From Thermoanaerobaculia bacterium (GTDB lineage Bacteria; Acidobacteriota; Thermoanaerobaculia; UBA5066; Gp7-AA6), in NCBI GenBank assembly GCA_035763965.1, contig DASUAD010000090.1:1-25726 (forward strand): 25,726 nucleotides of DNA. The letters run 5' to 3'. The position numbers and the translations under genes were made by a program. Shown one piece after another: positions 1 through 25,726 of the stretch (positions within the stretch are counted from its first letter, which is position 1; each line of letters opens with the position of its first letter). A model generated the notes under the pieces. The model made no database searches, was not told where the DNA came from, and saw only the letters and a program-made list of their open reading frames with translations.

Positions 1-141
1 CGCGAAACGAATTCGGGGTTGCCGCGCCGCCGTTTTGCCTCTTCTCGAGGCGGTGAGGCGAGAACCAAGAAGAGGCTGAGCATGGAGTGGCCTCTCCCGT
101 TACGCTTCCGGACGCGGGTTCAACTCCCGCCGCCTCCACCA
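1..141 (+). ncRNA. ssrA: tmRNA, 3' portion (5' part lies outside the window)
   Basis: Ends TTCCGGACGCGGGTTCAACTCCCGCCGCCTCCACCA. T-arm GCGGG(114-118)/TTCAACT/CCCGC(126-130), acceptor 3' strand CGCCTCC plus ACCA (fits the G3-U70 Ala identity), upstream CTGAGCATGGAG resembling the conserved TAAGCATGTAG segment, and a helix GCCTCTTCT(37-45)/AGAAGAGGC(68-76). No D or anticodon arm, so not a tRNA. Confidence 0.85.
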
Positions 142-211
142 ATGCTTGTCCACGCACATCACTCAACCCACTGAAAAGGCGCGATCTCTACATCTGCCGA
201 ATTCGTGTCGG
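135..211 (+). repeat. Left copy of 77-bp diverged direct repeat (putative attL core plus arm)
   Basis: Ungapped alignment to 25650-25726, 64/77 identical (38/41 in the distal part). Begins with the last 7 nt of tmRNA, TCCACCA. Confidence 0.9.
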
Positions 212-1758: not shown

Positions 1759-2763
1759 CTAGCCCGCCGGTCCCTGGTGAGAACGCGTAGCGGTCTCTCG
1801 GCTAAGCCGGCGGCCGAAGAAAGCGACACGCCCCGGCTCGGCCGCCGGGACGGGGTGGCACCACTCCTTCGAGCGCGGGTGCTCGCCGCGCACGGCTGCG
1901 TGGAAGGCCTTCTGGAGGGCGCGTGTGACGGGGCCGGTCGTGCCCGCGCCAATGCGACGGAAGTCGATCTCGCTTAGCGCGATGCACTCCGCCGCCGTGC
2001 CGCAGACGAAGACCTCGTCGGCCGTGTAGAGCTGGTCGCGTGAGACCGGGCGCTCGACCACCGTGTGGCCGAGGTCCTGCGCGAGCGTGACGAGGGCGTC
2101 GCGCGTGATGCCCTCCAGAATGGGCGCCGAGGGCGACGTGACGATGGTGCCGTTCTTCACGAGGAAGAGGTTCTCGCCCGTGCACTCGGCGACATAGCCC
2201 TGCGGGTCGAGCATGATCGCCTCGTCGAAGCCGAGGCGGACCGACTCCGTCTTGGCGAGGAAGCTATTGGCATAGCTGCCGCAGATCTTGGCCTTCGTCA
2301 TGGTGACGTTGGGGTGGTGGCGAGTGAAGGACGACACGTTCGCGCGCACGCCGTGCTCCAGGGCCTCGGCCCCGAGGTAGTTGGTCCACTGCCACGCGGC
2401 GATCCCGATGGACGGCGAGCCGCCGTCGAGGTTGAGGTTCCAGCCGCCGGTCGCCAGGGTGAGGAGCGGCCGGATGTAGCAGTCCTCGAACTCGTTTCGC
2501 ACGACGACCTCCGTGCAGGCGTCGACGAGGTCCTGCTCGGAGAACGGGAGCCCGCGGAAGCCCAGGCACGCGGCCGAGTACAGGAAGCGGGTGATGTGCT
2601 CCTTCAGCCGGAAGACGGCCGGTCCGTGCGCGGTCTTGTAGCAGCGGATGCCCTCGAAGACGCCGATGCCGTAGTGCAGGCCCGGCGTCAGGAAGTGCAG
2701 GGTGGCCTTCTCGAAATCGACGAAAGCGCCATCCATCCAGATCGTCTTCGATTGGAGCGTCAT
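1759..2763 (-). CDS. ilvE: Branched-chain amino acid aminotransferase (334 aa)
   Basis: LHYGIGVFEGIRCY, YIRP, AKICGSY, GYVAECTGENLF, ILEGITR, DEVFVCGTAAE (class IV PLP aminotransferase). Confidence 0.95.
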   Translation of the reverse strand: MTLQSKTIWMDGAFVDFEKATLHFLTPGLHYGIGVFEGIRCYKTAHGPAVFRLKEHITRFLYSAACLGFRGLPFSEQDLVDACTEVVVRNEFEDCYIRPLLTLATGGWNLNLDGGSPSIGIAAWQWTNYLGAEALEHGVRANVSSFTRHHPNVTMTKAKICGSYANSFLAKTESVRLGFDEAIMLDPQGYVAECTGENLFLVKNGTIVTSPSAPILEGITRDALVTLAQDLGHTVVERPVSRDQLYTADEVFVCGTAAECIALSEIDFRRIGAGTTGPVTRALQKAFHAAVRGEHPRSKEWCHPVPAAEPGRVAFFGRRLSRETATRSHQGPAG

Positions 2764-2773
2764 CGTGTTCCTT

Positions 2774-3868
2774 TCATTGCGCGGCCGTGACCGCCGGGGC
2801 GGCGATCGCCCCGGCGATGGCCTCGGTCATTTCAGTGGTCGACGCCGCTCGAGTCCCCGGGGGCGCCAGCTCGGCCGTACGAAGGCCCGCGGAGAGAGCG
2901 GCCTCGATCCCCTTCTCGACCGCATCCGCCTCCTCGGGCAGCGAGAGCGACCACCTCAGCAGCATCGCGACCGATCCGATCGCCCCGATCGGATTGGCGA
3001 GGTTCTTCCCTGCCAGAGACGGGGCCGAGCCGTGCACGGGCTCGAAGAGCCCCGGTCCCTTGCCGAGGCTGGCCGACGGCAGGAGGCCGAGCGAGCCGAC
3101 GAGCGCGCCGACCTCGTCGGAGAGGATGTCGCCGAAGAGGTTCTCCATCACGAGGACGTCGAAGCGAGCGGGCGAAAGAACCAGACTCATCGCGCAGGAG
3201 TCCACGAGCTGGTGCTCCAGCCTGACGTCGGGATAGCGCTCGGCGACCTCGTTCACGACCGCCCGCCAAAGGCGCGAGGTCTCGAGGACGTTCGACTTGT
3301 CGACCGACGTCACGAGGCGCCGGCGAGAACGAGCCAGGCGAAACGCGAGGTCGGCCACGCGGGCGATCTCCTCGCGCGTGTAGGGAAGCGTGTTGACGGC
3401 CGTCCCGGCCTCGAGGTCCACGCCGCGCGGCGTGCCGAAGTAGAGCCCGCCGGTCAGCTCGCGCACGATGAGGAGGTCGAGCCCGCCCGCCACTTCGCGC
3501 CGGAGCGGCCCGGCGTTCTCCAGACCGGGAAAGATCCGCGCCGGACGGAGGTTGGCATAGACGCCGAGTGCCTTGCGCAACCGAAGGAGACCCGCCTCCG
3601 GCCGCCCGTCGGGGGGAGCGTCGTCGAAGGAGGGGTCGCCCACGGCGGCGAGGAATACGGCGTCGGCCGAGAGGCAGGCCTCCCGCGTTCTCTCGGGCAG
3701 CGGCGTGCCTTCGCTCCGGATTGCGGAGGCGCCGATCGGAAGCGGCGTGATCTCGAAGCGGTGGGAGAAGCGCTCCGCGACGGCGCGAAGGACCGTCAGG
3801 GCCGCGTCGGCGACCTCGGGCCCGATTCCGTCTCCCGGCAGAACGACGATCTTGGCGCCACGGCCCAT
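2774..3868 (-). CDS. leuB: 3-isopropylmalate dehydrogenase (364 aa)
   Basis: LPGDGIGPEV, RELTGGLYFG, VDKSNVL, NLFGDILSD, EPVHGSAP. Confidence 0.95.
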   Translation of the reverse strand: MGRGAKIVVLPGDGIGPEVADAALTVLRAVAERFSHRFEITPLPIGASAIRSEGTPLPERTREACLSADAVFLAAVGDPSFDDAPPDGRPEAGLLRLRKALGVYANLRPARIFPGLENAGPLRREVAGGLDLLIVRELTGGLYFGTPRGVDLEAGTAVNTLPYTREEIARVADLAFRLARSRRRLVTSVDKSNVLETSRLWRAVVNEVAERYPDVRLEHQLVDSCAMSLVLSPARFDVLVMENLFGDILSDEVGALVGSLGLLPSASLGKGPGLFEPVHGSAPSLAGKNLANPIGAIGSVAMLLRWSLSLPEEADAVEKGIEAALSAGLRTAELAPPGTRAASTTEMTEAIAGAIAAPAVTAAQ

Positions 3869-13076: not shown

Positions 13077-13160
13077 GCAGGTCGCTCCTTCACCACGGTC
13101 CTGATTCGCGGGGAGTCGGGGACGGGAAAGGAGCTGGTGGCTCACGCCCTCCACTACCAC
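13077..13160 (+). pseudogene. Fragment of a sigma54-dependent activator AAA+ domain
   Basis: Reads AGRSFTTVLIRGESGTGKELVAHALHYH, the NtrC-family Walker A signature. No start and no downstream GAFTGA. Confidence 0.8.
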
Positions 13161-13476
13161 GACGCTTCTTCTCTCCCAGCCGCCGGTCGATCTGCCGAGC
13201 ACTGATGGACAGAAGCCGCCTCTCCACCTCTGCCGGCAAGCAGAAACGCTTCCGAATCCAGGGCACCCAGACAGGCAGCAGCGCCTTCAACCGCATCGAC
13301 CAGGGATACCCCGCCGCCTCCCAGACCTCATGCAGAATCGAAATCACTCGCGGCCCGTACCGCAGTCGTGACCGCCTCCGCCGTCGCTCTGGCTCCTTCC
13401 CCGGCGGCGGACCGTTCAGCTTGCGGATCGCGTACTTGCGGTTGTACCCGCAGACCCGGCAAAACTCCTCCAGGAT
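13158..13476 (-). mobile_element. N-terminal fragment of an ISNCY-like (rve/DDE) transposase
   Basis: ILEEFCRVCGYNRKYAIRKLN...RYG...WEAAGYPWSMRLKALLPVW...LLSISARQIDRRL matches the N-terminus I recall for this family. Both ends are cut and the catalytic core is missing. Confidence 0.7.
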
Positions 13477-13481
13477 CGGCG

Positions 13482-13520
13482 CGACGATCGGCCTCAGGGT
13501 TACATTTTCGACGGCGCGAT
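13482..13520 (+). repeat. Motif CGACGATC-N7-GGGTTACATTTTC shared with 25086-25132, candidate IS end
   Basis: Same two-part motif and 7-nt spacing as 25106-25132. GGGTTACATTTTC is 12/13 identical to 25086-25098. Confidence 0.5.
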
Positions 13521-13528
13521 ACGGAGAC

Positions 13529-13557
13529 TTGACAAAAGGGACAGAAGCGCCTATGTT
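13529..13557 (+). promoter_or_regulatory. sigma70-type promoter of the sulfur operon
   Basis: TTGACA (13529-13534), 17-bp spacer, TATGTT (13552-13557). Confidence 0.75.
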
Positions 13558-13707
13558 GAAAAATGTAGTGCGTGTATCTCTGATTTCCCGTTGCACCTGT
13601 CGAATGCCCTGGGGGGACCTGGGGCCTTTGCTGGCGCGCGCGGAGCATCGAGGGACATCGAGAGGATGAGTACTCGAAGCTAGTCATTTCGTAAGCGTGG
13701 TGCAGTG

Positions 13708-13741
13708 AAGGGCCCGGGGCAACCCCCGGGCCCTTTTTTTT
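13708..13741 (+). terminator. Intrinsic terminator inside the 5' leader of the sulfur operon
   Basis: AAGGGCCCGGGG-CAAC-CCCCGGGCCCTT (12-bp stem) with a T8 run at 13734-13741. Lies between the promoter and the CAGGAGG RBS (13761-13767). Confidence 0.9.
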
Positions 13742-13774
13742 CCGGTCCCGGTACTCGAGTCAGGAGGCGAGTCT

Positions 13775-14041
13775 GTGCAAGTTGTGCCCGAACTCTGGTT
13801 TCCCGCCGACACGGCGCCTCGCGAGGTGCTCGCGAGGGCGGCTACGCGGTTTTCGCCCCGGATCGCGTTCGCGACGGGCTTCGGAATGGAGGGCTGTGTT
13901 CTTCTCCACATGATCGCCGCGCGCCGGCTACCGATCGACGTCTTCACGCTCGACACCGGCCTGCTCTTCCCCGAAACGTACGTGCTCTGGAAGCGGCTCG
14001 AAGCCCTCTATGGCCTGACGATCCGTGGGGTACAGCCCGAA
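13775..14041 (+). pseudogene. cysH: APS/PAPS reductase, N-terminal ~89 codons only
   Basis: FATGFGMEGCVLLHM, VFTLDTGLLFPETY, then similarity stops after IRGVQPE. No CC/CxxC cluster motif and no C-terminal ECGLH. Confidence 0.8.
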
Positions 14042-14202
14042 CCTCGGCGATCGGAAGGAGCTTCCCTTCCGTTCCGGCAGTCCTCTCCATATTCCCTTCA
14101 AAGAAATTCTCCTCTTCGTTCTCTTCGGGCATTTCCACTCACCCCGCCGCTCGCATCGGTGCGCGCGCGGCCCGCGGCTCACGAACCTGAAAGGAGTCAC
14201 CC

Positions 14203-15465
14203 ATGGCCGCCGTCGACGATCCCAAGACCCTCTGCCGAACGCGGCTCTCTTTCGCCGACGAGGCAGAGATCGACGCGTTCGTCGCGACACTCGAGCGCTT
14301 CGAGAAAGGCGAGCTTTCGCCCGACGAGTGGCGCGCCTACCGGTTGGTGCGCGGTACGTACAGCCAGCGGCAGGACGGAGACGTGCAAATGCTGCGCGTG
14401 AAGATTCCGCAGGGCATCCTGGATGTCGCGCAGCTTCACGCCCTCGCGGACGTGGCGGAGAGCTGGTCCCGCGGCTTCGGGCACATCACGACGCGGCAGA
14501 ACCTGCAGTTCCACTTCCTGAAGCTCCACGACGTGGAGCCCGCGATGCGGCGGCTGGCCGAAGCGGGCCTGACGACGCGCGAGGCCTGCGGAAACTCGGT
14601 CCGGAACATCACGGGCTGCCCATACGCCGGCGTCGCGGCGGACGAAGCCTTCGACGTGACGCCCTACGCCGAGGCCCTCACGCGCTATCTCCTGAGACAT
14701 CCGCTCAGCTCCTCACTGCCGCGAAAGTTCAAGATCGCCTTCGAAGGCTGCGTGGAGGAGCACACGTTCACACCGATCAACGACCTCGGGTTTCGCGCGC
14801 GGCTCGTCCTCGAGAATGGCGTTCCGCGCCGGGGCTTTCGTCTGACGGCGGGCGGCGGAACGGCCACGATGCCGAAGTCCGGACGCGTTCTTTACGAGTT
14901 CCTTCCCTCGGGCGAGATCCTCGCCGTCGCCGAGGCGATCCTCCGTGTCTTCCACCGGCTCGGAAACCGGAAGGACAAGGCGAAGGCCCGGATGAAGTTC
15001 CTCATAGCCGAGTTGGGGTGGGAGGGCTGGAAAAGAGAATTCGAGAGCTCCTTCGAAGAAGTCCGAAATGAAGGCCTGCCGTGGCTTCCGTTCGATGCCG
15101 AAGCGCCTCCTGTCGAGGACGAGCCGGGGACGTCGCGTGAGGCTGCGCCCTCGCTGGCCGAAGTCGCCGCGCAGGCCGTCGCCACACGCCTTCACGGGCC
15201 GGGTCTCCTTCCTTCGGTGGAACCCGTCTTTTCTTCGTCATCCGGCACGTTCACCCGGTGGTCCAAGACGAATGTCCGGCCCCAGAAGCAGGCCGGGGAG
15301 ACCGCGACGGCGTTCTTCCGGCGGGTGGAGCTCGGCCACGTCAAGCCGCTCCTCGCGGACCTGGAGAATGTCACTCCGGCGAACGTTAGGCCGGAGGATT
15401 TCATCGATCTCGAAGAAGAGGCAAACTTCACGATCGAGACGAAGGAAGGTGAATGTGCTGCCTAG
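14203..15465 (+). pseudogene. sir: Siroheme sulfite/nitrite reductase (Sir/NirA type) with a probable in-frame internal deletion (420 aa)
   Basis: GTYSQRQ, MLRVKIPQG, HITTRQNLQFH, EACGNSVRNITGCP, LPRKFKIAFEGC, NVRPQKQ. It then jumps at ~15297 to a 55-aa C-terminal tail. The second NIR_SIR repeat with the Fe-S/siroheme cysteines is missing. Confidence 0.75.
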
Positions 15466-15916
15466 CGTCGTTTTCGAGCCCGAAGTCCTCGAGGAGATCG
15501 CGCGAGCCGCTGCGAAGGCGTATCCGTACGAAGGCTGCGGCGCGCTGCTGGGTGAAGCGCGACACGTCCGCGTCACGCTGCCGCTCCCGAACACGGAGAA
15601 GGGAACGCCGCGCGTGCGGTTCGAGGTCTCGCCGAAGGACTACCTGGGCGTCGAGCGCGAGGCCGACGCGCGCGGCGTGAGGCTCCTCGGCTTCTGGCAC
15701 AGCCACCCCGACCACCCCGCCCGGCCCTCGGCCACGGATCGCGCTTTCGCCTGGGAAGGGCTCCTCACCGTGATCGTTTCGGTCGAGAGGGGCCGCTCCG
15801 CCGACATCGGCGCGTGGGAGATCCTCGGGCCGGAGTCCCCGTTCGAATCCGTCGAGATCGCGAGCCCGGGCGCCGCGGCGCTCGTCACCCCCCTTTCGAA
15901 AGAAGGAGAAACCTGA
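15455..15916 (+). CDS. JAB1/MPN (Mov34) metalloprotease, Mec/HcyD-like (153 aa)
   Basis: GTG start at 15455. JAMM motif E(GCG)...WHSHPDHPARPSATD. Confidence 0.9.
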   Translation: MLPSVVFEPEVLEEIARAAAKAYPYEGCGALLGEARHVRVTLPLPNTEKGTPRVRFEVSPKDYLGVEREADARGVRLLGFWHSHPDHPARPSATDRAFAWEGLLTVIVSVERGRSADIGAWEILGPESPFESVEIASPGAAALVTPLSKEGET

Positions 15917-16197
15917 TGCCCGTTCCCGTCCGAATCCCCACCCCGCTCCGGCGTTTCACGGGGGACCGCGCCGAGGTTTCCGTCAAGGCCGCAGATCTCT
16001 CCTCGCTCCTGGAGCGTCTCTTCGAGGAGTGTCCCGGGCTCCGGGGCCAGCTCCTCGGCGAGGATCGCAAGCTCCGGAGCTTCGTGAACATCTACGTGAA
16101 CGACGAGGACGTCCGCTTTCTCGACGGTCTGAAGACCGCTGTGAAGGACGGCGACTCCGTCGAAATCGTGCCGGCGATCGCGGGCGGCGGGGAATGA
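15916..16197 (+). CDS. MoaD/ThiS/CysO-family ubiquitin-like sulfur carrier (93 aa) with C-terminal extension
   Basis: VRIPTPLRRFT...RSFVNIYVNDEDVRFLDGLKTAVKDGDSVEIVPAIAGG followed by GE-stop. RBS GAAGGAG. Confidence 0.9.
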   Translation: MPVPVRIPTPLRRFTGDRAEVSVKAADLSSLLERLFEECPGLRGQLLGEDRKLRSFVNIYVNDEDVRFLDGLKTAVKDGDSVEIVPAIAGGGE

Positions 16198-17381
16198 GCC
16201 CCGGTCCCGGCACGCGGGCGACGCGGGGAGGCGAGGCACGCAAGAAGGGTTTCGACGCGGTCACCCAGCCGATCGTCTGTACGGCGACGTACGCCTTCGA
16301 CGACACGGCCGAGATTCGCGACCATTTCGAGGGGCGCGTCGCGCGCGAGGAGTACGGCCGCTACGGAAACCCCACCGTTCGGGCGGCCGAGAGAAAGATC
16401 GCGGAGCTCGACGGCGCCGAGGATTGCATTCTCTTCGCGAGCGGGATGGCGGCGGCGACGACCGCGCTGCTGGCCCTGTTGAAGAGCGGCCAGCACGTCG
16501 TCATGACGTCGGACTGCTACCGGAGGACGCGGCAGTTCGTGTCGAAAACGCTTCCGCGCTACGGAATCGAGCACACGTTCGTCGAGCCGGGAGACGACGG
16601 AGCTCTCGAGACGGCGATCCGGCCCGGGAAGACGCGGCTCATCCTGGCCGAGTCGCCCACGAACCCGTACCTCCGCGTGGCGGACCTGCCGCGCCTCGTC
16701 GCCCTCCGCGACCGGCATCCGGGCGTGAAGATCCTCATCGATTCCACGTTCGCGACGCCCGTCAACGAGCGCCCGCTGGAGATCGGCGTCGACCTCGTCC
16801 TCCACTCCGCCACCAAGTATCTCGGCGGCCACAACGACCTCTTGGCGGGGTCGCTCTCGGGAAGGGCGGACCTGATCTCCGGCCTGCGGGATCTGCGCGG
16901 GGTTCTCGGCGGGGTCCTCGACCCGCACGCGGCGTATCTGCTGCTCCGGGGCGTGAAGACTCTCGACCTCCGCGTGAGGCGTCAGAACGAGTCGGCTCTG
17001 CGCGTGGCCACCTGGCTGGAGTCCCACGAGCGCGTCGAGCGCGTCTTCTATCCGGGGCTGGCCAGCCACCCGGACCACGAAATCGCGAGACGGCAGATGT
17101 CCGGCTTCGGGGGCGTCGTGAGCTTCCTCGTGAAAGGGGATCTCGACGCGGCCTCGCGGTTCATCGACGCCACTCGGCTGCCCATCATCGCGCCCTCCCT
17201 CGGCGGCGTGGAGAGCCTCATCGAGCAGCCGGCGCTGATGTCCTTCTACGAGCTCACCACGGAAGAGCGGCGCGCCATCGGCATCTTCGACAACCTCGTG
17301 CGCCTCGCCGTGGGCATCGAGGATGCCGACGACCTCATCGCCGACCTCGAGCACGCGTTTTCCACGGCGGCTCGGGGATAG
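16194..17381 (+). CDS. metB: Cystathionine gamma-synthase-family PLP enzyme (395 aa)
   Basis: ATG overlaps the carrier stop. Motifs YGRYGNPT, FASGMAA, ESPTNP, DSTFATP, PLP lysine HSATKYLGGHND, SLGGVESL, RLAVGIED. Substrate specificity is uncertain. Confidence 0.8.
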   Translation: MSPGPGTRATRGGEARKKGFDAVTQPIVCTATYAFDDTAEIRDHFEGRVAREEYGRYGNPTVRAAERKIAELDGAEDCILFASGMAAATTALLALLKSGQHVVMTSDCYRRTRQFVSKTLPRYGIEHTFVEPGDDGALETAIRPGKTRLILAESPTNPYLRVADLPRLVALRDRHPGVKILIDSTFATPVNERPLEIGVDLVLHSATKYLGGHNDLLAGSLSGRADLISGLRDLRGVLGGVLDPHAAYLLLRGVKTLDLRVRRQNESALRVATWLESHERVERVFYPGLASHPDHEIARRQMSGFGGVVSFLVKGDLDAASRFIDATRLPIIAPSLGGVESLIEQPALMSFYELTTEERRAIGIFDNLVRLAVGIEDADDLIADLEHAFSTAARG

Positions 17382-17439
17382 GAACTTGCTTTTTCGGGTT
17401 GGGGGCGAGGGGCTCTCGCGTCGACCCGCGCGAGAGAGC

Positions 17440-18260
17440 TTCTCGCGCTTGCGGAGATGATCGAGGATGCGCTTGATGACAGCGGGTTGGGTGATGAAGC
17501 CGACGACTCTCATTTCGCCTCCGCAGCGTAGACACACGAGGGGGTCGACTTCGTAGACGCGCCGAATAAGATCCGCCCAGCGGCGCCTGAGGGCCGCGCG
17601 GTCCGCCCCCTCAGGCGTTGGCTCCGCCATCGACGCCTCGCTCGAGACGGAGGGCTGGGGCGGCGCCTCGGCCTTGCGGCGCTCGCCCGGGGCCACGTTG
17701 GAGTAGGCGCCGTAGTAGCGGACCAAATGGCGCCTTGGGTCCGGGATCTGCACGAGGACCCGGGCCACAAACTCCATCGCGTCTATCCTCTCGCTTTCCG
17801 TCGGCTCGAGCTGGTCATGCCTCCTCTTGCGCGCGTAGAGGACCTCGTGCGAGCCGGGCGTCAAGCGTACCCGGGAGAGGCTCACCGGGGAGCGCATCAT
17901 GTAGCGGACCAGCGCCTCGAGACCCTGGCTATCCCCGGCGGGCACATAGACCCGGTTGTGGACGGAGAAGCCGCTTCGCCTCCACGACAACAGCAGCTCG
18001 ATCCGCTCCTGGCTCAGCAGCCCTCTTCGCCGGAGGAGGGCTGGGACCTTGTGGCGGAAGAGCTCTTGGGCCGCTGCCTCATCCACATACGGCACCAGGA
18101 TCCCCTCCCCTGAAGCCGTCCAGCCTCCCCGGGAAACCAGCGCGTGGACATACGCGTGGAAGTTCGCCCTGTCGCCGAAAGTCTGGACCACCGACACCAA
18201 CCCAGGCCGAAAACCCTTCTCCTCCGCGACGGCTGCCGCCATGAGCTCCTTCACGGTCTC
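17440..18260 (-). mobile_element. IS91-family (Y2 HUH) transposase remnant, 5'-truncated and degenerate
   Basis: VVQTFG..NFHAYVHAL (HUH degenerate), SGFSVHN, RYMMRSP, HLVRYYGAYSN, WADLIRRVYEVDPLVCLRCGGEMRVVGFI...ILDHL. No N-terminal Zn domain and no stop at the expected position. Confidence 0.85.
17883..17994 (+). repeat. 112-bp IS91 segment duplicated at 24877-24988
   Basis: 111/112 identical, direct orientation, 6994 bp apart. The single difference is G17906 vs A24900. Confidence 0.95.
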
Positions 18261-18441
18261 TCTTGTGGTGTCCGTTTGTCTTGACCTTGTCGCCCAAGCA
18301 GCTGCTGCCCATTGTGATGGTTGTGCTTGGCCCCTCTGGTCCCTTGGGCCCCTTGCCCTGGGCCACGGCCGCGCCCGCCCAGGCGAAGACACTGAGCAGG
18401 ACCAAGATGGCGAGAAGAGAGCGTTTCGTACGATTCATCAT
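18261..18441 (-). pseudogene. 5' fragment (~60 codons) of a secreted protein, cut by the IS91 remnant
   Basis: RBS AAGGGGAG, then MMNRTKRSLLAILVLLSVFAWAGAAVA|QG (basic n-region, hydrophobic h-region, AxA site). The frame then runs into IS91 sequence. Confidence 0.6.
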
Positions 18442-24876: not shown

Positions 24877-24988
24877 CACCGGGGAGCGCATCATGTAGCA
24901 GACCAGCGCCTCGAGACCCTGGCTATCCCCGGCGGGCACATAGACCCGGTTGTGGACGGAGAAGCCGCTTCGCCTCCACGACAACAGC
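24877..24988 (-). mobile_element. 112-bp internal IS91 transposase scrap (second copy)
   Basis: Encodes LLSWRRSGFSVHNRVYVPAGDSQGLEALVCYMMRSPV, near-identical to 17883-17994. Confidence 0.9.
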
Positions 24989-25437: not shown

Positions 25438-25668
25438 CTAGCTTTCGCCGAGAGATCCAACCGACCGGAGCGCCTTGGCGACGGTTTTGTCCGTGACGCC
25501 CAGGTGACGGCCGATCGCGGATAGGCTGAGCCCCAGGCTGCGCAGGCGCCTCGATTCCAGGGCGATTCGCCGGTACGCGGGGATGACCGCCTCAAACAGG
25601 GCCGCCTGGAACGGGATCTCTCCGGCGGTTCGAATTCTTTGCGAACGTGTCCACCAACTCTCATCCAC
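25438..25668 (-). CDS. Small helix-turn-helix protein spanning the putative att core (76 aa, GTG start)
   Basis: C-terminal HTH LSLSAIGRHLGVTDKTVAKAL. Its W-W codons are the complement of CCACCA (25651-25656). Confidence 0.65.
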   Translation of the reverse strand: MDESWWTRSQRIRTAGEIPFQAALFEAVIPAYRRIALESRRLRSLGLSLSAIGRHLGVTDKTVAKALRSVGSLGES

Positions 25669-25726
25669 TCACGTCACCCAGCCTGCTGAAAAGACGCGAT
25701 CTCGACATCTGCCGAATTCGCGTCGG
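25650..25726 (+). repeat. Right copy of 77-bp diverged direct repeat (att core plus arm of a neighbouring element)
   Basis: 64/77 identical to 135-211 with no gaps. Runs to the window edge. Confidence 0.9.

What the first reader, a model, noticed from the sequence alone, without database searches (positions are those of the whole stretch)
15455..17381. Ubiquitin-like sulfur relay coupled to a cystathionine gamma-synthase-type enzyme: possible new homocysteine route
Seen: translationally coupled JAB protease, Ubl carrier whose GG is masked by GE, and a PLP gamma-replacement enzyme, all downstream of sir. No MoeB/ThiF E1 is in the window. Established: W. succinogenes uses HcyS (masked GG), HcyD (JAB), HcyF (E1), Sir and MetY to make homocysteine on a carrier, and M. 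tuberculosis uses CysO, Mec and CysM for cysteine. Inference: here the JAB unmasks the carrier and later releases the product, and a MetB-type rather than MetY/CysM enzyme accepts the thiocarboxylate. These three genes are intact while cysH and sir are broken, suggesting they are still selected and use an E1 and sulfur source in trans.
Basis: partly seen in the sequence, partly recalled or inferred. Interest (0 to 1): 0.72.

Follow-up and report, generated by a model that had tools for sequence, protein, structure and literature searches.

The report
Carrier-protein homocysteine module, missing its activator
Three tightly linked, intact genes (a trimming protease, a small ubiquitin-like sulfur carrier and a plant-type cystathionine gamma-synthase relative) most likely belong to a four-gene system that makes the methionine precursor homocysteine from sulfur held on the carrier; this copy rides on a mobile island and has lost its activating enzyme.

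Summary
JAB (15455-15916), a CysO-like carrier ending AIAGG+GE (15916-16197) and a PF01053 PLP enzyme (16194-17381) overlap by TGATG and ATGA. They follow a broken cysH and a sulfite reductase that lacks its catalytic half.

The trio is really a four-gene module. All 16 orthologous loci in a sister family of the same order also carry a MoeZ-type E1 (ThiF + rhodanese). It sits either after the PLP gene or fused to the carrier directly behind the GG, sometimes behind a full cysH-sat/cysC-sirC-cobA-sir operon. In this window an IS91 remnant occupies the E1 position.

The PLP enzyme is a plant-type cystathionine gamma-synthase: Nicotiana CGS scores 441 bits against 318 for the next structure. It is not MetY, CysM or MetM. 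Unlinked orthologs often follow thrC or a SAM riboswitch. One Anaerolineae operon reads SAM riboswitch-PLP-JAB-carrier-E1, which ties the module to methionine.

A complex model supports carrier-enzyme binding (0.67, best control 0.00).

The window is a tmRNA-integrated island with foreign cargo. Independent metagenomes show three deletion forms of cysH/sir, and all keep the leader and the trio. The host has an E1 in a CysM-JAB-carrier::E1 cluster.

This is a new variant of a known kind. The scan has met MetM/MetO-type and Wolinella-type operons before, but not one with this enzyme. Whether this copy still functions is unresolved.

The parts
1..141 (+). 3' part of a tmRNA gene, cut by the contig end; the island's integration site
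   Evidence: Rfam RF00023, 69 bits, model positions 231-374. 99% identical to contig ends of same-genus genome G006.
135..211 (+). Left copy of a 77-nt direct repeat starting TCCACCA. The right copy is at 25650-25726 (83% identical).
   Evidence: the repeat finder family D2.
13529..13745 (+). Promoter-like site (TTGACA-17-TATGTT) and leader with a 13-bp GC hairpin plus T8. Kept in every deletion haplotype.
Evidence: Pattern scan. Segment 13511-13765 is retained at >99% in L127-L133.
13775..14042 (+). cysH (PAPS/APS reductase) N-terminal fragment, broken
   Evidence: PF01507 matches profile positions 2-68 of 175 only. NF002537 matches positions 26-106 of 244.
14203..15465 (+). Sulfite reductase remnant: residues 1-365 joined in frame to the last ~58 residues. 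The 4Fe-4S/sirohaem half is lost.
   Evidence: Only one NIR_SIR_ferr + NIR_SIR pair is present. tblastn to 615-aa sir of relatives covers 1-365 and 556-613. The joint at 15297 is spanned by contigs of independent runs X2, X3 and X12.
15455..15916 (+). JAMM/JAB metalloprotease, 153 aa (Mec/HcyD-like)
   Evidence: PF14464 1.7e-25. HxHx7Sx2D motif at residue 82. 66-78% identical to operon JABs of G029, G037 and L134, dN/dS 0.19-0.30.
15916..16197 (+). CysO-like ThiS/MoaD-fold sulfur carrier, 93 aa, ending AIAGG followed by GE
   Evidence: PF02597 9.7e-17. Best solved relatives are 4n6e_B and M. tuberculosis CysO 3dwg_C, E 5e-19. GG is invariant and the tail variable in 21 relatives.
16194..17381 (+). 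Plant-type cystathionine gamma-synthase homologue, 395 aa, PLP Lys208
   Evidence: PF01053 3.9e-133. No NCBIfam equivalog over cut-off; best is PRK08249 at 401 of 600 bits. Nicotiana CGS 1qgn/1i41 scores 441 bits vs 318 for the next hit. 86-91% identical to carrier-linked orthologs, dN/dS 0.11-0.15.
17400..18392 (-). IS91-family (Y2_Tnp) transposase remnant lying where relatives have the E1 gene
   Evidence: Called as PF04986 in sister contigs L127-L131. DNA homology to the g12 operon ends at 17359.

Best explanation
The three genes are the surviving part of a four-gene protein-thiocarboxylate module: JAB protease, CysO-like carrier, plant-type CGS homologue and MoeZ-type E1. The module makes homocysteine.

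Inferred mechanism, by analogy with Wolinella HcyS/HcyD/HcyF/MetY and M. tuberculosis CysO/Mec/CysM:
1. JAB removes the two residues (here GE) behind the carrier's GG. Where the carrier is fused to the E1, JAB cuts it free.
2. The E1 adenylates the GG carboxylate. Its rhodanese domain, or sulfide from Sir, converts the adenylate to a thiocarboxylate.
3. The PLP enzyme performs a gamma-replacement on an activated homoserine with carrier-COS- as the nucleophile. O-phosphohomoserine is the most likely substrate, because the enzyme is the bacterial counterpart of plant CGS and its orthologs often follow thrC.
4. After an S-to-N acyl shift, JAB hydrolyses carrier-homocysteine and releases homocysteine.

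In this window the module arrived on a tmRNA-integrated island from a lineage of another family. It then lost its E1 to an IS91-associated rearrangement and its cysH...sir genes to deletions. If it still works, it must borrow the host's CysM-JAB-carrier::E1 cluster (contig C461) and the host's own sulfite reductase.

Shown: gene content, coupling, motifs, conservation of the module, relatedness to plant CGS, the SAM-riboswitch link, and the population structure. Inferred: every chemical step, the homoserine ester used, and current function in this host.
For: Anatomy and motifs.

Linkage. All 16 orthologs (71-91% identity) found in 175 genomes of the order lie beside the carrier and a ThiF+rhodanese E1. 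The order is either JAB-carrier-PLP-E1 (e.g. L134) or JAB-carrier::E1-PLP. The latter stands behind cysH-sat/cysC-sirC-cobA-sir in G040 and G123. These PLP genes form one clade (support 0.998) inside an 85-member ortholog clade (support 0.935) that excludes E. coli MetB and MetC and the relatives' paralogs.

Independent second association. Anaerolineae contig L109 has a SAM-I riboswitch (186-313), then PLP, JAB, carrier (GG+DT) and E1.

Methionine role of the clade. SAM riboswitches lie directly upstream of 7 of 36 scanned orthologs. A thrC-type gene lies directly upstream in 24 of 80.

Carrier. It is CysO-like. AIAGG is invariant, with tails GE, AR, AG, TG, TR, A, DT or longer, or a fused E1. 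Its nearest carriers outside the operon type (58-62%) sit beside ThrC-like or CysK/CysM enzymes.

Complex model of a PLP-enzyme dimer plus the mature carrier: score 0.67, best of 3 controls 0.00. That mark was reached by 51 of 78 solved complexes and 2 of 108 mismatched pairs.

Long-term purifying selection: dN/dS 0.11-0.30.

Trans partners. Contig C461 has CysM-like, JAB, carrier::E1, and its E1 is 77% identical to the G029 operon E1. A second sir lies on C239/C214.
Against: No biochemistry exists for any member.

79 of 80 orthologs outside the order have no carrier nearby, so the enzyme family works without one, and the linked enzymes may also use free sulfide or cysteine.

The g12 and g17 genomes have MetX-like genes, so O-acetylhomoserine cannot be excluded as the substrate.

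In this window the E1 is absent in every haplotype seen. Recent amino-acid changes per site are higher in JAB and the carrier than in the PLP gene, though based on only 1-3 changes.

The operon leader was read by another agent as cysteine-sensing rather than methionine-sensing.

The complex model was folded without alignments and cannot show chemistry. The tool's confident contact list names carrier residue 87 but not the terminal GG.
Confidence: 0.6

Rival explanations
1. Decaying relic. After the island lost its E1, cysH and sir, the carrier route is dead in this host. JAB and the carrier are not yet visibly broken, and at most the PLP enzyme still serves as an ordinary carrier-independent CGS or sulfhydrylase using free cysteine or sulfide.
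For: The E1 is missing from all 8 haplotypes and is replaced by an IS91 remnant. cysH and sir are being deleted in three different ways. Within the population JAB shows 0-1 synonymous against 0-3 non-synonymous changes, and the carrier 1-2 against 1-3, whereas the four-fold longer PLP gene has only 1-2 of each. 79 of 80 outside orthologs work without a linked carrier.
Against: All three frames, the JAMM motif and the GG are intact in every haplotype and in runs from soil, sediment and groundwater. Every deletion form keeps the promoter/leader joined to the trio. The host has a 77%-identical MoeZ-type E1. The counts are too small to test.
Confidence: 0.25
2. Neighbours without substrate hand-over. 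JAB, carrier and E1 form a general sulfur-activating unit, for cysteine via CysM, cofactors or thio-nucleosides. The CGS homologue is merely co-regulated as another sulfur-amino-acid gene and uses cysteine (true transsulfuration) or sulfide.
For: JAB-carrier-E1(rhodanese) trios occur widely with other or no metabolic partners (Iyer et al. 2006, PMC1779556, Table 1 rows 4b-4e). The host's own cluster pairs such a unit with CysM. No clade-specific residues concentrate in the predicted interface: 1 of 8.
Against: Linkage is 16 of 16 across two different gene orders, with overlapping start and stop codons here. A second, independent association under a SAM riboswitch exists. The complex model passes with controls at 0.00. 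No CysM-type gene was seen in the carrier-linked loci I examined with Pfam labels.
Confidence: 0.1
3. The module makes cysteine or another thiol rather than homocysteine. The PLP enzyme would act on O-phosphoserine, O-acetylserine or a different acceptor.
For: The module sits behind sulfate-reduction genes in G040 and G123. From my own knowledge, some PF01053 sulfhydrylases also accept O-acetylserine.
Against: The enzyme's clade is controlled by SAM riboswitches and linked to thrC. Its closest characterised relative is a homoserine-ester enzyme. A cysteine-sensing leader fits the original first gene, cysH.
Confidence: 0.05

Closest known systems
Wolinella succinogenes HcyS-Ala / HcyD / HcyF / MetY / Sir protein-thiocarboxylate methionine pathway (Krishnamoorthy and Begley 2011, cited from my own knowledge; neighbourhood type 4e of Iyer et al. 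2006, PMC1779556)
   Same: A ThiS/MoaD-fold carrier whose GG is masked by extra residues, a JAMM protease, an E1, a PF01053-superfamily PLP gamma-replacement enzyme, and linkage to cysH/sat/sir in the fuller relatives (G040, G123).
   Different: The PLP enzyme is a plant-type CGS homologue of about 395 aa, not a MetY-type O-acetylhomoserine sulfhydrylase (TIGR01326 scores only 310 bits in two pieces). The E1 carries a rhodanese domain, whereas type 4e E1s lack it and use SirA. In many relatives the carrier is fused to the E1. In this window the E1 is gone.
Streptomyces albulus MetM / MetO / Mec / MoeZ route from O-phospho-L-homoserine (Hasebe et al. 2024, as summarised in the GapMind 2026 paper, 10.1101/2024.10.14.618325)
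   Same: A carrier thiocarboxylate made by a MoeZ-type E1, a JAB (Mec) for maturation, and probably O-phosphohomoserine as acceptor. The carriers closest to this one outside its own operon type sit beside ThrC-like enzymes.
   Different: MetM is a threonine-synthase homologue (fold type II, PF00291). Here the enzyme is PF01053 (fold type I).
Mycobacterium tuberculosis CysO / Mec / CysM (with MoeZ); neighbourhood types 4c and 4d of Iyer et al. 2006
   Same: The carrier is CysO-like by sequence (3dwg_C, E 4.9e-19). It also has a JAB protease and an E1 with rhodanese. The host genome has such a cluster on C461.
   Different: The product there is cysteine, made by a CysM-type enzyme from O-phosphoserine. 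No CysM gene is in this module.
Plant cystathionine gamma-synthase (Nicotiana tabacum, PDB 1qgn/1i41)
   Same: By far the closest solved relative: 441 bits over residues 6-389 with few gaps, sharing EYGRYGNPT and SATK(Y/F)LGGHND. Orthologs lie next to thrC, which mirrors the plant O-phosphohomoserine branch point.
   Different: Plant CGS takes free cysteine as nucleophile and has no carrier, JAB or E1 partners.

Membership tests
Protein-thiocarboxylate amino-acid synthesis modules (HcyS/CysO/MetO type) | ThiS/MoaD-fold carrier with a C-terminal Gly-Gly | tested here: met
   PF02597 9.7e-17. CysO 3dwg_C E 4.9e-19. AIAGG is invariant in 21 relatives.
Protein-thiocarboxylate amino-acid synthesis modules (HcyS/CysO/MetO type) | JAMM/JAB metalloprotease with E...HxHx7Sx2D next to the carrier | tested here: met
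   PF14464 1.7e-25. Motif HSHPDHPARPSATD at residue 82. Stop/start overlap TGATG.
Protein-thiocarboxylate amino-acid synthesis modules (HcyS/CysO/MetO type) | E1-like adenylating enzyme (ThiF/MoeB/MoeZ) encoded with the carrier | tested here: not met
   None in the window. It is present in all 16 orthologous loci and in trans on C461 and C34.
Protein-thiocarboxylate amino-acid synthesis modules (HcyS/CysO/MetO type) | Carrier thiocarboxylate is the sulfur nucleophile of the PLP enzyme, and JAB releases the product | not testable with these tools
   Only indirect support: the linkage and a complex model (score 0.67, best control 0.00; mark reached by 51 of 78 solved complexes and 2 of 108 mismatched pairs).
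Wolinella Hcy pathway specifically | MetY-type O-acetylhomoserine sulfhydrylase (TIGR01326) | tested here: not met
   TIGR01326 scores 310 bits in two stretches against a cut-off of 495. The best models are CGS, MGL and MetZ types.
Wolinella Hcy pathway specifically | Linked functional assimilatory sulfite reductase | tested here: not met
   The window's sir lacks residues ~366-555. Sir is intact upstream of the module in G040 and G123.
MetM/MetO route | ThrC-fold (PF00291) homocysteine synthase | tested here: not met
   The enzyme is PF01053.
Plant-type cystathionine gamma-synthase clade | Closest sequence relationship to plant CGS, with the PLP lysine conserved | tested here: met
   1i41_A scores 441 bits against 318 for the next structure. 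Alignment. K208.
Plant-type cystathionine gamma-synthase clade | Use of O-phosphohomoserine | not testable with these tools
   Context only. thrC lies upstream in 24 of 80 orthologs. thrB is present in all five genomes and MetA in none. MetX-like genes are present in g12 and g17, weak in G000 and absent from G006.
NCBIfam PRK08249 (cystathionine gamma-synthase family protein) | Score over the curated cut-off | tested here: not met
   401.5 bits against a cut-off of 600.

The most novel reading that the evidence does not exclude
A bacterial counterpart of plant cystathionine gamma-synthase has been recruited at least twice (Thermoanaerobaculia-like Acidobacteriota and Anaerolineae) as a third, unrelated kind of carrier-dependent homocysteine synthase. 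It would use O-phosphohomoserine plus a CysO-like protein thiocarboxylate, and the JAB protease would also free the carrier from a carrier::E1 fusion protein. In this host a horizontally acquired, E1-less copy would keep working by borrowing the E1 of the host's cysteine (CysM/CysO-type) cluster, so one activating enzyme would serve two carriers.
Probability: 0.35. Interest if true: 0.7.

Novelty: new variant of a known kind. Interest (0 to 1): 0.55.

Why it matters
Two enzyme solutions are published for making homocysteine from a protein thiocarboxylate: MetY in Wolinella and the ThrC-like MetM in Streptomyces. A third solution built on the plant-type CGS scaffold would show that carrier-borne sulfur has been plugged into methionine synthesis repeatedly. 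It would give pathway-annotation tools such as GapMind a further rule for Acidobacteriota and Chloroflexota. It would also provide a simple four-protein system for studying how a fold-type-I PLP enzyme accepts a protein C-terminus as nucleophile. The carrier::E1 fusions cut by a JAB protease are a bacterial parallel to ubiquitin-fusion processing. The population data give a natural experiment in which an operon is trimmed to a promoter plus three genes on a mobile island.

Tried and rejected
1. Assembly chimera: rejected. The sir/cysH scraps are closest to own-genus genomes and everything else to another family, which looked suspicious. But seven contigs from other ENA, JGI and Logan samples share the layout at 99%, and contigs of runs X2, X3, X5 and X12 span the joints.

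2. Mis-binned contig: unlikely. The contig starts inside a tmRNA gene that is 99% identical to same-genus genome G006. The second-largest contig, C516, is clearly own-genus-like. The ilv and leu genes are single copy in the bin. The contig therefore reads as an island in a g1 host.

3. Within-population dN/dS: too few changes to use.

4. Clade-specific residues in the carrier-linked PLP enzymes: 8 positions, only 1 in the modelled interface, so no signal.

5. Literature searches for a CGS-type enzyme working with a sulfur carrier found none in the held library. This is not proof of absence.

6. An exact-protein look-up to extend the left flank of the island found nothing.

7. Distinguishing ThrC from MetM for the upstream neighbour of the orthologs: NCBIfam calls both threonine synthase. 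The host's thrB-adjacent ThrC is 41% identical to that neighbour, which favours ThrC. This is not settled.
Full report
**1. What is in the sequence**

On the + strand four reading frames follow each other without gaps:
- A sulfite-reductase remnant, 14203-15465.
- A JAB/JAMM protease. It starts GTG at 15455, 10 nt before the sir stop and behind AGGAAGG, and ends at 15916.
- A 93-residue ThiS/MoaD-fold protein, ATG 15916 to 16197. Its start overlaps the JAB stop as TGATG.
- A 395-residue PLP enzyme, ATG 16194 to 17381, overlapping the carrier stop as ATGA.

Pfam gives Prok-JAB 1.7e-25, ThiS 9.7e-17 and Cys_Met_Meta_PP 3.9e-133. The JAMM motif HSHPDHPARPSATD and the PLP lysine (K208 in SATKYLGG) are intact. 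The carrier ends PAIAGG-GE.

Upstream, cysH is reduced to about 90 N-terminal residues (13775 to about 14042). The sir frame matches residues 1-365 and 556-613 of 615-residue relatives, so the half that binds the Fe-S cluster and sirohaem is missing. There is no ThiF-family gene in the window.

**2. The structure is real, and it sits on an acquired island**

The window is contig C90, the longest of a 674-contig, 3.28-Mb genome bin.
- Bases 1-141 are the 3' part of a tmRNA gene. They are 99% identical to a same-genus genome.
- A 77-nt repeat starting TCCACCA stands at 135-211 and again at the contig's last bases.
- Between the repeats, the ilv-leu genes, the JAB-carrier-PLP genes and gltBD resemble genomes of another family of the same order (g12; 72-85% DNA identity). 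They hardly resemble the bin's own genus.
- The bin's second-largest contig is plainly own-genus-like.
- In 175 species genomes of the order, the PLP gene has orthologs in 16 of 63 genomes of that other family. It has none in the 104 other genomes of the window's own family.

I read this as a tmRNA-integrated island with foreign cargo.

It is not an assembly artefact. Seven contigs from other ENA, JGI and Logan samples are 99% identical and share the order leuC ... JAB-carrier-PLP-IS91 transposase-gltDB. Contigs of four further runs from soil, groundwater and sediment span the joints.

These data reveal three co-existing haplotypes:
- The window's form.
- A form in which cysH up to 13940 is joined to 177 bp of the sir catalytic half and then to the sir tail from 15295.
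- A form in which the leader up to 13765 is joined directly to the sir tail from 15289.

In run X12 the trio has a word depth of about 90-110, while the sir N-terminal part has about 8-19. All forms keep segment 13511-13765 and the three genes. None of the forms has an E1.

**3. The trio is part of a four-gene module**

Each of the 16 orthologous loci has the carrier and a ThiF+rhodanese E1 next to the PLP gene. The E1 scores MoeB/MoeZ models at 520-566 bits.
- In genus g12 the order is JAB-carrier-PLP-E1. One example lies on a 3.9-Mb contig with Pfam-labelled genes.
- In five other genera the order is JAB-carrier::E1-PLP. Carrier and E1 form a single frame of 470-478 codons in which the E1 begins a few residues after AIAGG.
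- In G040 and G123 this second form stands directly behind cysH-sat/cysC-sirC-cobA-sir.

In the window, DNA homology to the g12 operon ends at 17359, 22 nt before the PLP stop. An IS91-family transposase remnant follows. The break changed only the variable last residues of the enzyme.

Elsewhere in the bin, contig C461 encodes a CysM-like enzyme, a second JAB and a carrier::E1 fusion. Its E1 part is 77% identical to the g12 operon E1. A second sir, closer to the genus norm, lies on C239/C214.

**4. What the PLP enzyme is**

- No NCBIfam equivalog reaches its cut-off. The best is PRK08249, 'cystathionine gamma-synthase family protein', at 401 of 600 bits. The MetY model is far down the list and matches in two pieces.
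- Among solved structures, Nicotiana tabacum cystathionine gamma-synthase stands alone at 441 bits. It aligns almost without gaps over residues 6-389. The next hit scores 318 bits.
- Eighty loci from other phyla encode orthologs at 54-71% identity. These include Myxococcota, Methylomirabilota, Chloroflexota and Latescibacterota.
- In a tree these orthologs and the carrier-linked genes form one clade (support 0.935). It excludes E. coli MetB and MetC and the relatives' paralogs. The carrier-linked genes of this order are monophyletic within it (support 0.998).
- Only one of the 80 outside loci has JAB, carrier and E1 nearby. The commonest neighbour is a thrC-type gene directly upstream, in 24 of 80.
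- SAM riboswitches stand directly upstream of 7 of the 36 orthologs I scanned.

So the clade works in methionine synthesis and normally needs no carrier.

The single outside locus with a carrier is telling. Anaerolineae contig L109 reads SAM-I riboswitch, PLP enzyme, JAB, carrier (GG+DT), E1. This is a second, independent recruitment, and it places the whole set under methionine/SAM control.

**5. The carrier and its tail**

The carrier's best solved relatives are the CysO proteins of Amycolatopsis (4n6e_B) and M. tuberculosis (3dwg_C, E 4.9e-19). In 21 relatives of 80-100% identity, AIAGG never varies. What follows is GE, AG, AR, TG, TR, A or longer strings, DT in L109, and a fused E1 in five genera and on C461. 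An invariant GG followed by a free-running tail is what one expects if the tail is cut off. The adjacent JAB is the obvious candidate for that cut, as in HcyS-Ala/HcyD (my own knowledge). Outside this operon type the most similar carriers (58-62%) lie next to ThrC-like enzymes (the MetM/MetO arrangement) or next to CysK/CysM plus JAB.

**6. Does the carrier meet the enzyme?**

I folded a dimer of the PLP enzyme with the mature carrier (residues 1-91). The score was 0.67 with the best of 3 controls at 0.00. That mark was reached by 51 of 78 solved complexes and 2 of 108 mismatched pairs, and the tool notes that this job is unlike its calibration. I know of no solved complex of a PF01053 enzyme with a ThiS-like protein, so recall from memory is unlikely.

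The confident contacts involve enzyme residues 45-47, 94-97, 177-179 and 226-233 of one subunit and 118-122 of the other. On the carrier they involve residues 54-58, 63-71 and 87. The terminal glycines are not among the confident contacts. This is support for binding, not proof.

**7. Selection**

Against g12 orthologs, dN/dS is 0.19-0.30 for JAB, 0.14-0.23 for the carrier and 0.11-0.15 for the PLP enzyme. Within the 99% population the counts are tiny:
- JAB: 0-1 synonymous, 0-3 non-synonymous.
- Carrier: 1-2 synonymous, 1-3 non-synonymous.
- PLP gene: 0-2 synonymous, 1-2 non-synonymous, in four times the length.

This neither shows nor excludes relaxed constraint on JAB and the carrier since the E1 was lost. 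Three different deletions all left promoter, leader and trio intact and adjacent. That is the best argument that something here is still used. It does not say whether that is all three genes or only the last one.

**8. Mechanism, rivals and substrate**

My best reading (0.6) is a carrier-dependent homocysteine synthase module, working as set out under Best explanation.

For the homoserine ester I favour O-phosphohomoserine. The reasons are the plant-CGS relationship, the thrC linkage, the presence of thrB in all five genomes checked and the absence of MetA from all five. MetX-like genes are weak in the host and absent from the checked same-genus genome G006. However, the donor-like g12 and g17 genomes do have MetX-like genes, so O-acetylhomoserine remains possible.

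The rivals are:
- The window copy is a relic in which at most the PLP enzyme still works (0.25).
- Plain co-regulation without hand-over of sulfur (0.1).
- A product other than homocysteine (0.05).

**9. Comparison with the literature**

Iyer, Burroughs and Aravind (2006, PMC1779556) catalogued JAB-carrier-E1(rhodanese) trios with cysteine synthase (types 4c and 4d). They also catalogued sulfate-assimilation clusters with O-acetylhomoserine sulfhydrylase, whose E1 lacks rhodanese (type 4e), and they noted Ubl-ThiF fusions. The type 4e chemistry was later worked out in Wolinella (my own knowledge). The MetM/MetO/Mec/MoeZ route from O-phosphohomoserine was described in Streptomyces (as summarised in 10.1101/2024.10.14.618325).

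The present module mixes these. It has a type-4c E1 and a CysO-like carrier, a type-4e genomic setting, and a third PLP scaffold. I found no description of a plant-type CGS homologue working with a carrier in the held library. This scan's earlier notes hold MetM/MetO-type and Wolinella-type operons and stand-alone plant-type CGS genes, but not this combination.

**10. Verdict**

It is a new variant of a known kind, of moderate interest.

Noticed in passing
window 1-211 and 25650-25726: The contig begins inside a tmRNA gene and is bracketed by an 83%-identical 77-nt repeat starting at the tmRNA CCA end. The cargo between the repeats (ilv, leu, sulfur module, gltBD) resembles another family of the order, while the tmRNA piece is 99% identical to the bin's own genus. 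This looks like a roughly 25-kb metabolic island at tmRNA.
   Followed up: partly
window 13765-15297; L127:9203-9379; L128:9370-9380: Three co-existing deletion haplotypes of cysH/sir end within about 6 nt of each other on the right side (15289-15297, at GGGGAGACCGCG). All leave the last ~55 sir codons in front of JAB. Genome G121 (L158) likewise keeps only the sir tail before JAB. The tail may be needed for JAB translation, or the site may be a deletion hot spot.
   Followed up: partly
L042:7005-8417, L158-L161, G000 contig C461 (L141:~2116-3619): Carrier and MoeZ-type E1 are one reading frame (470-495 codons), with the E1 starting a few residues after AIAGG. They are always next to a JAB gene. 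This is a ubiquitin-fusion-like precursor that would need JAB cleavage.
   Followed up: partly
L047-L126 (80 loci from other phyla): Orthologs of the plant-type CGS homologue follow a Zn-ribbon thrC-type gene in 24 of 80 loci. They are preceded by SAM-I or SAM-II riboswitches in 7 of 36 scanned loci. This looks like a plant-like O-phosphohomoserine branch point widespread in Myxococcota, Chloroflexota and Methylomirabilota.
   Followed up: partly
G000 contigs C600, C60, C281; G006: The host genus shows no MetA. MetX is only a weak partial hit in G000 and is absent from the 98%-complete G006. thrB-thrC and a second PRK08197-type ThrC-like gene (C60) are present. How these organisms make homocysteine without the island is unclear.
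   Followed up: no
window 13093-13510 vs L127:7912-8773: The window carries about 420 bp of scraps here (a sigma-54-activator-like fragment and an antisense transposase/integrase-like fragment). The sister haplotypes carry about 860 bp with an ACT-domain ORF instead.
   Followed up: no
window 17883-17994 and 24877-24988: A 112-nt IS91-derived repeat (99% identical) flanks gltD-gltB, as another first-stage note said. It is present in the sister contigs too.
   Followed up: no
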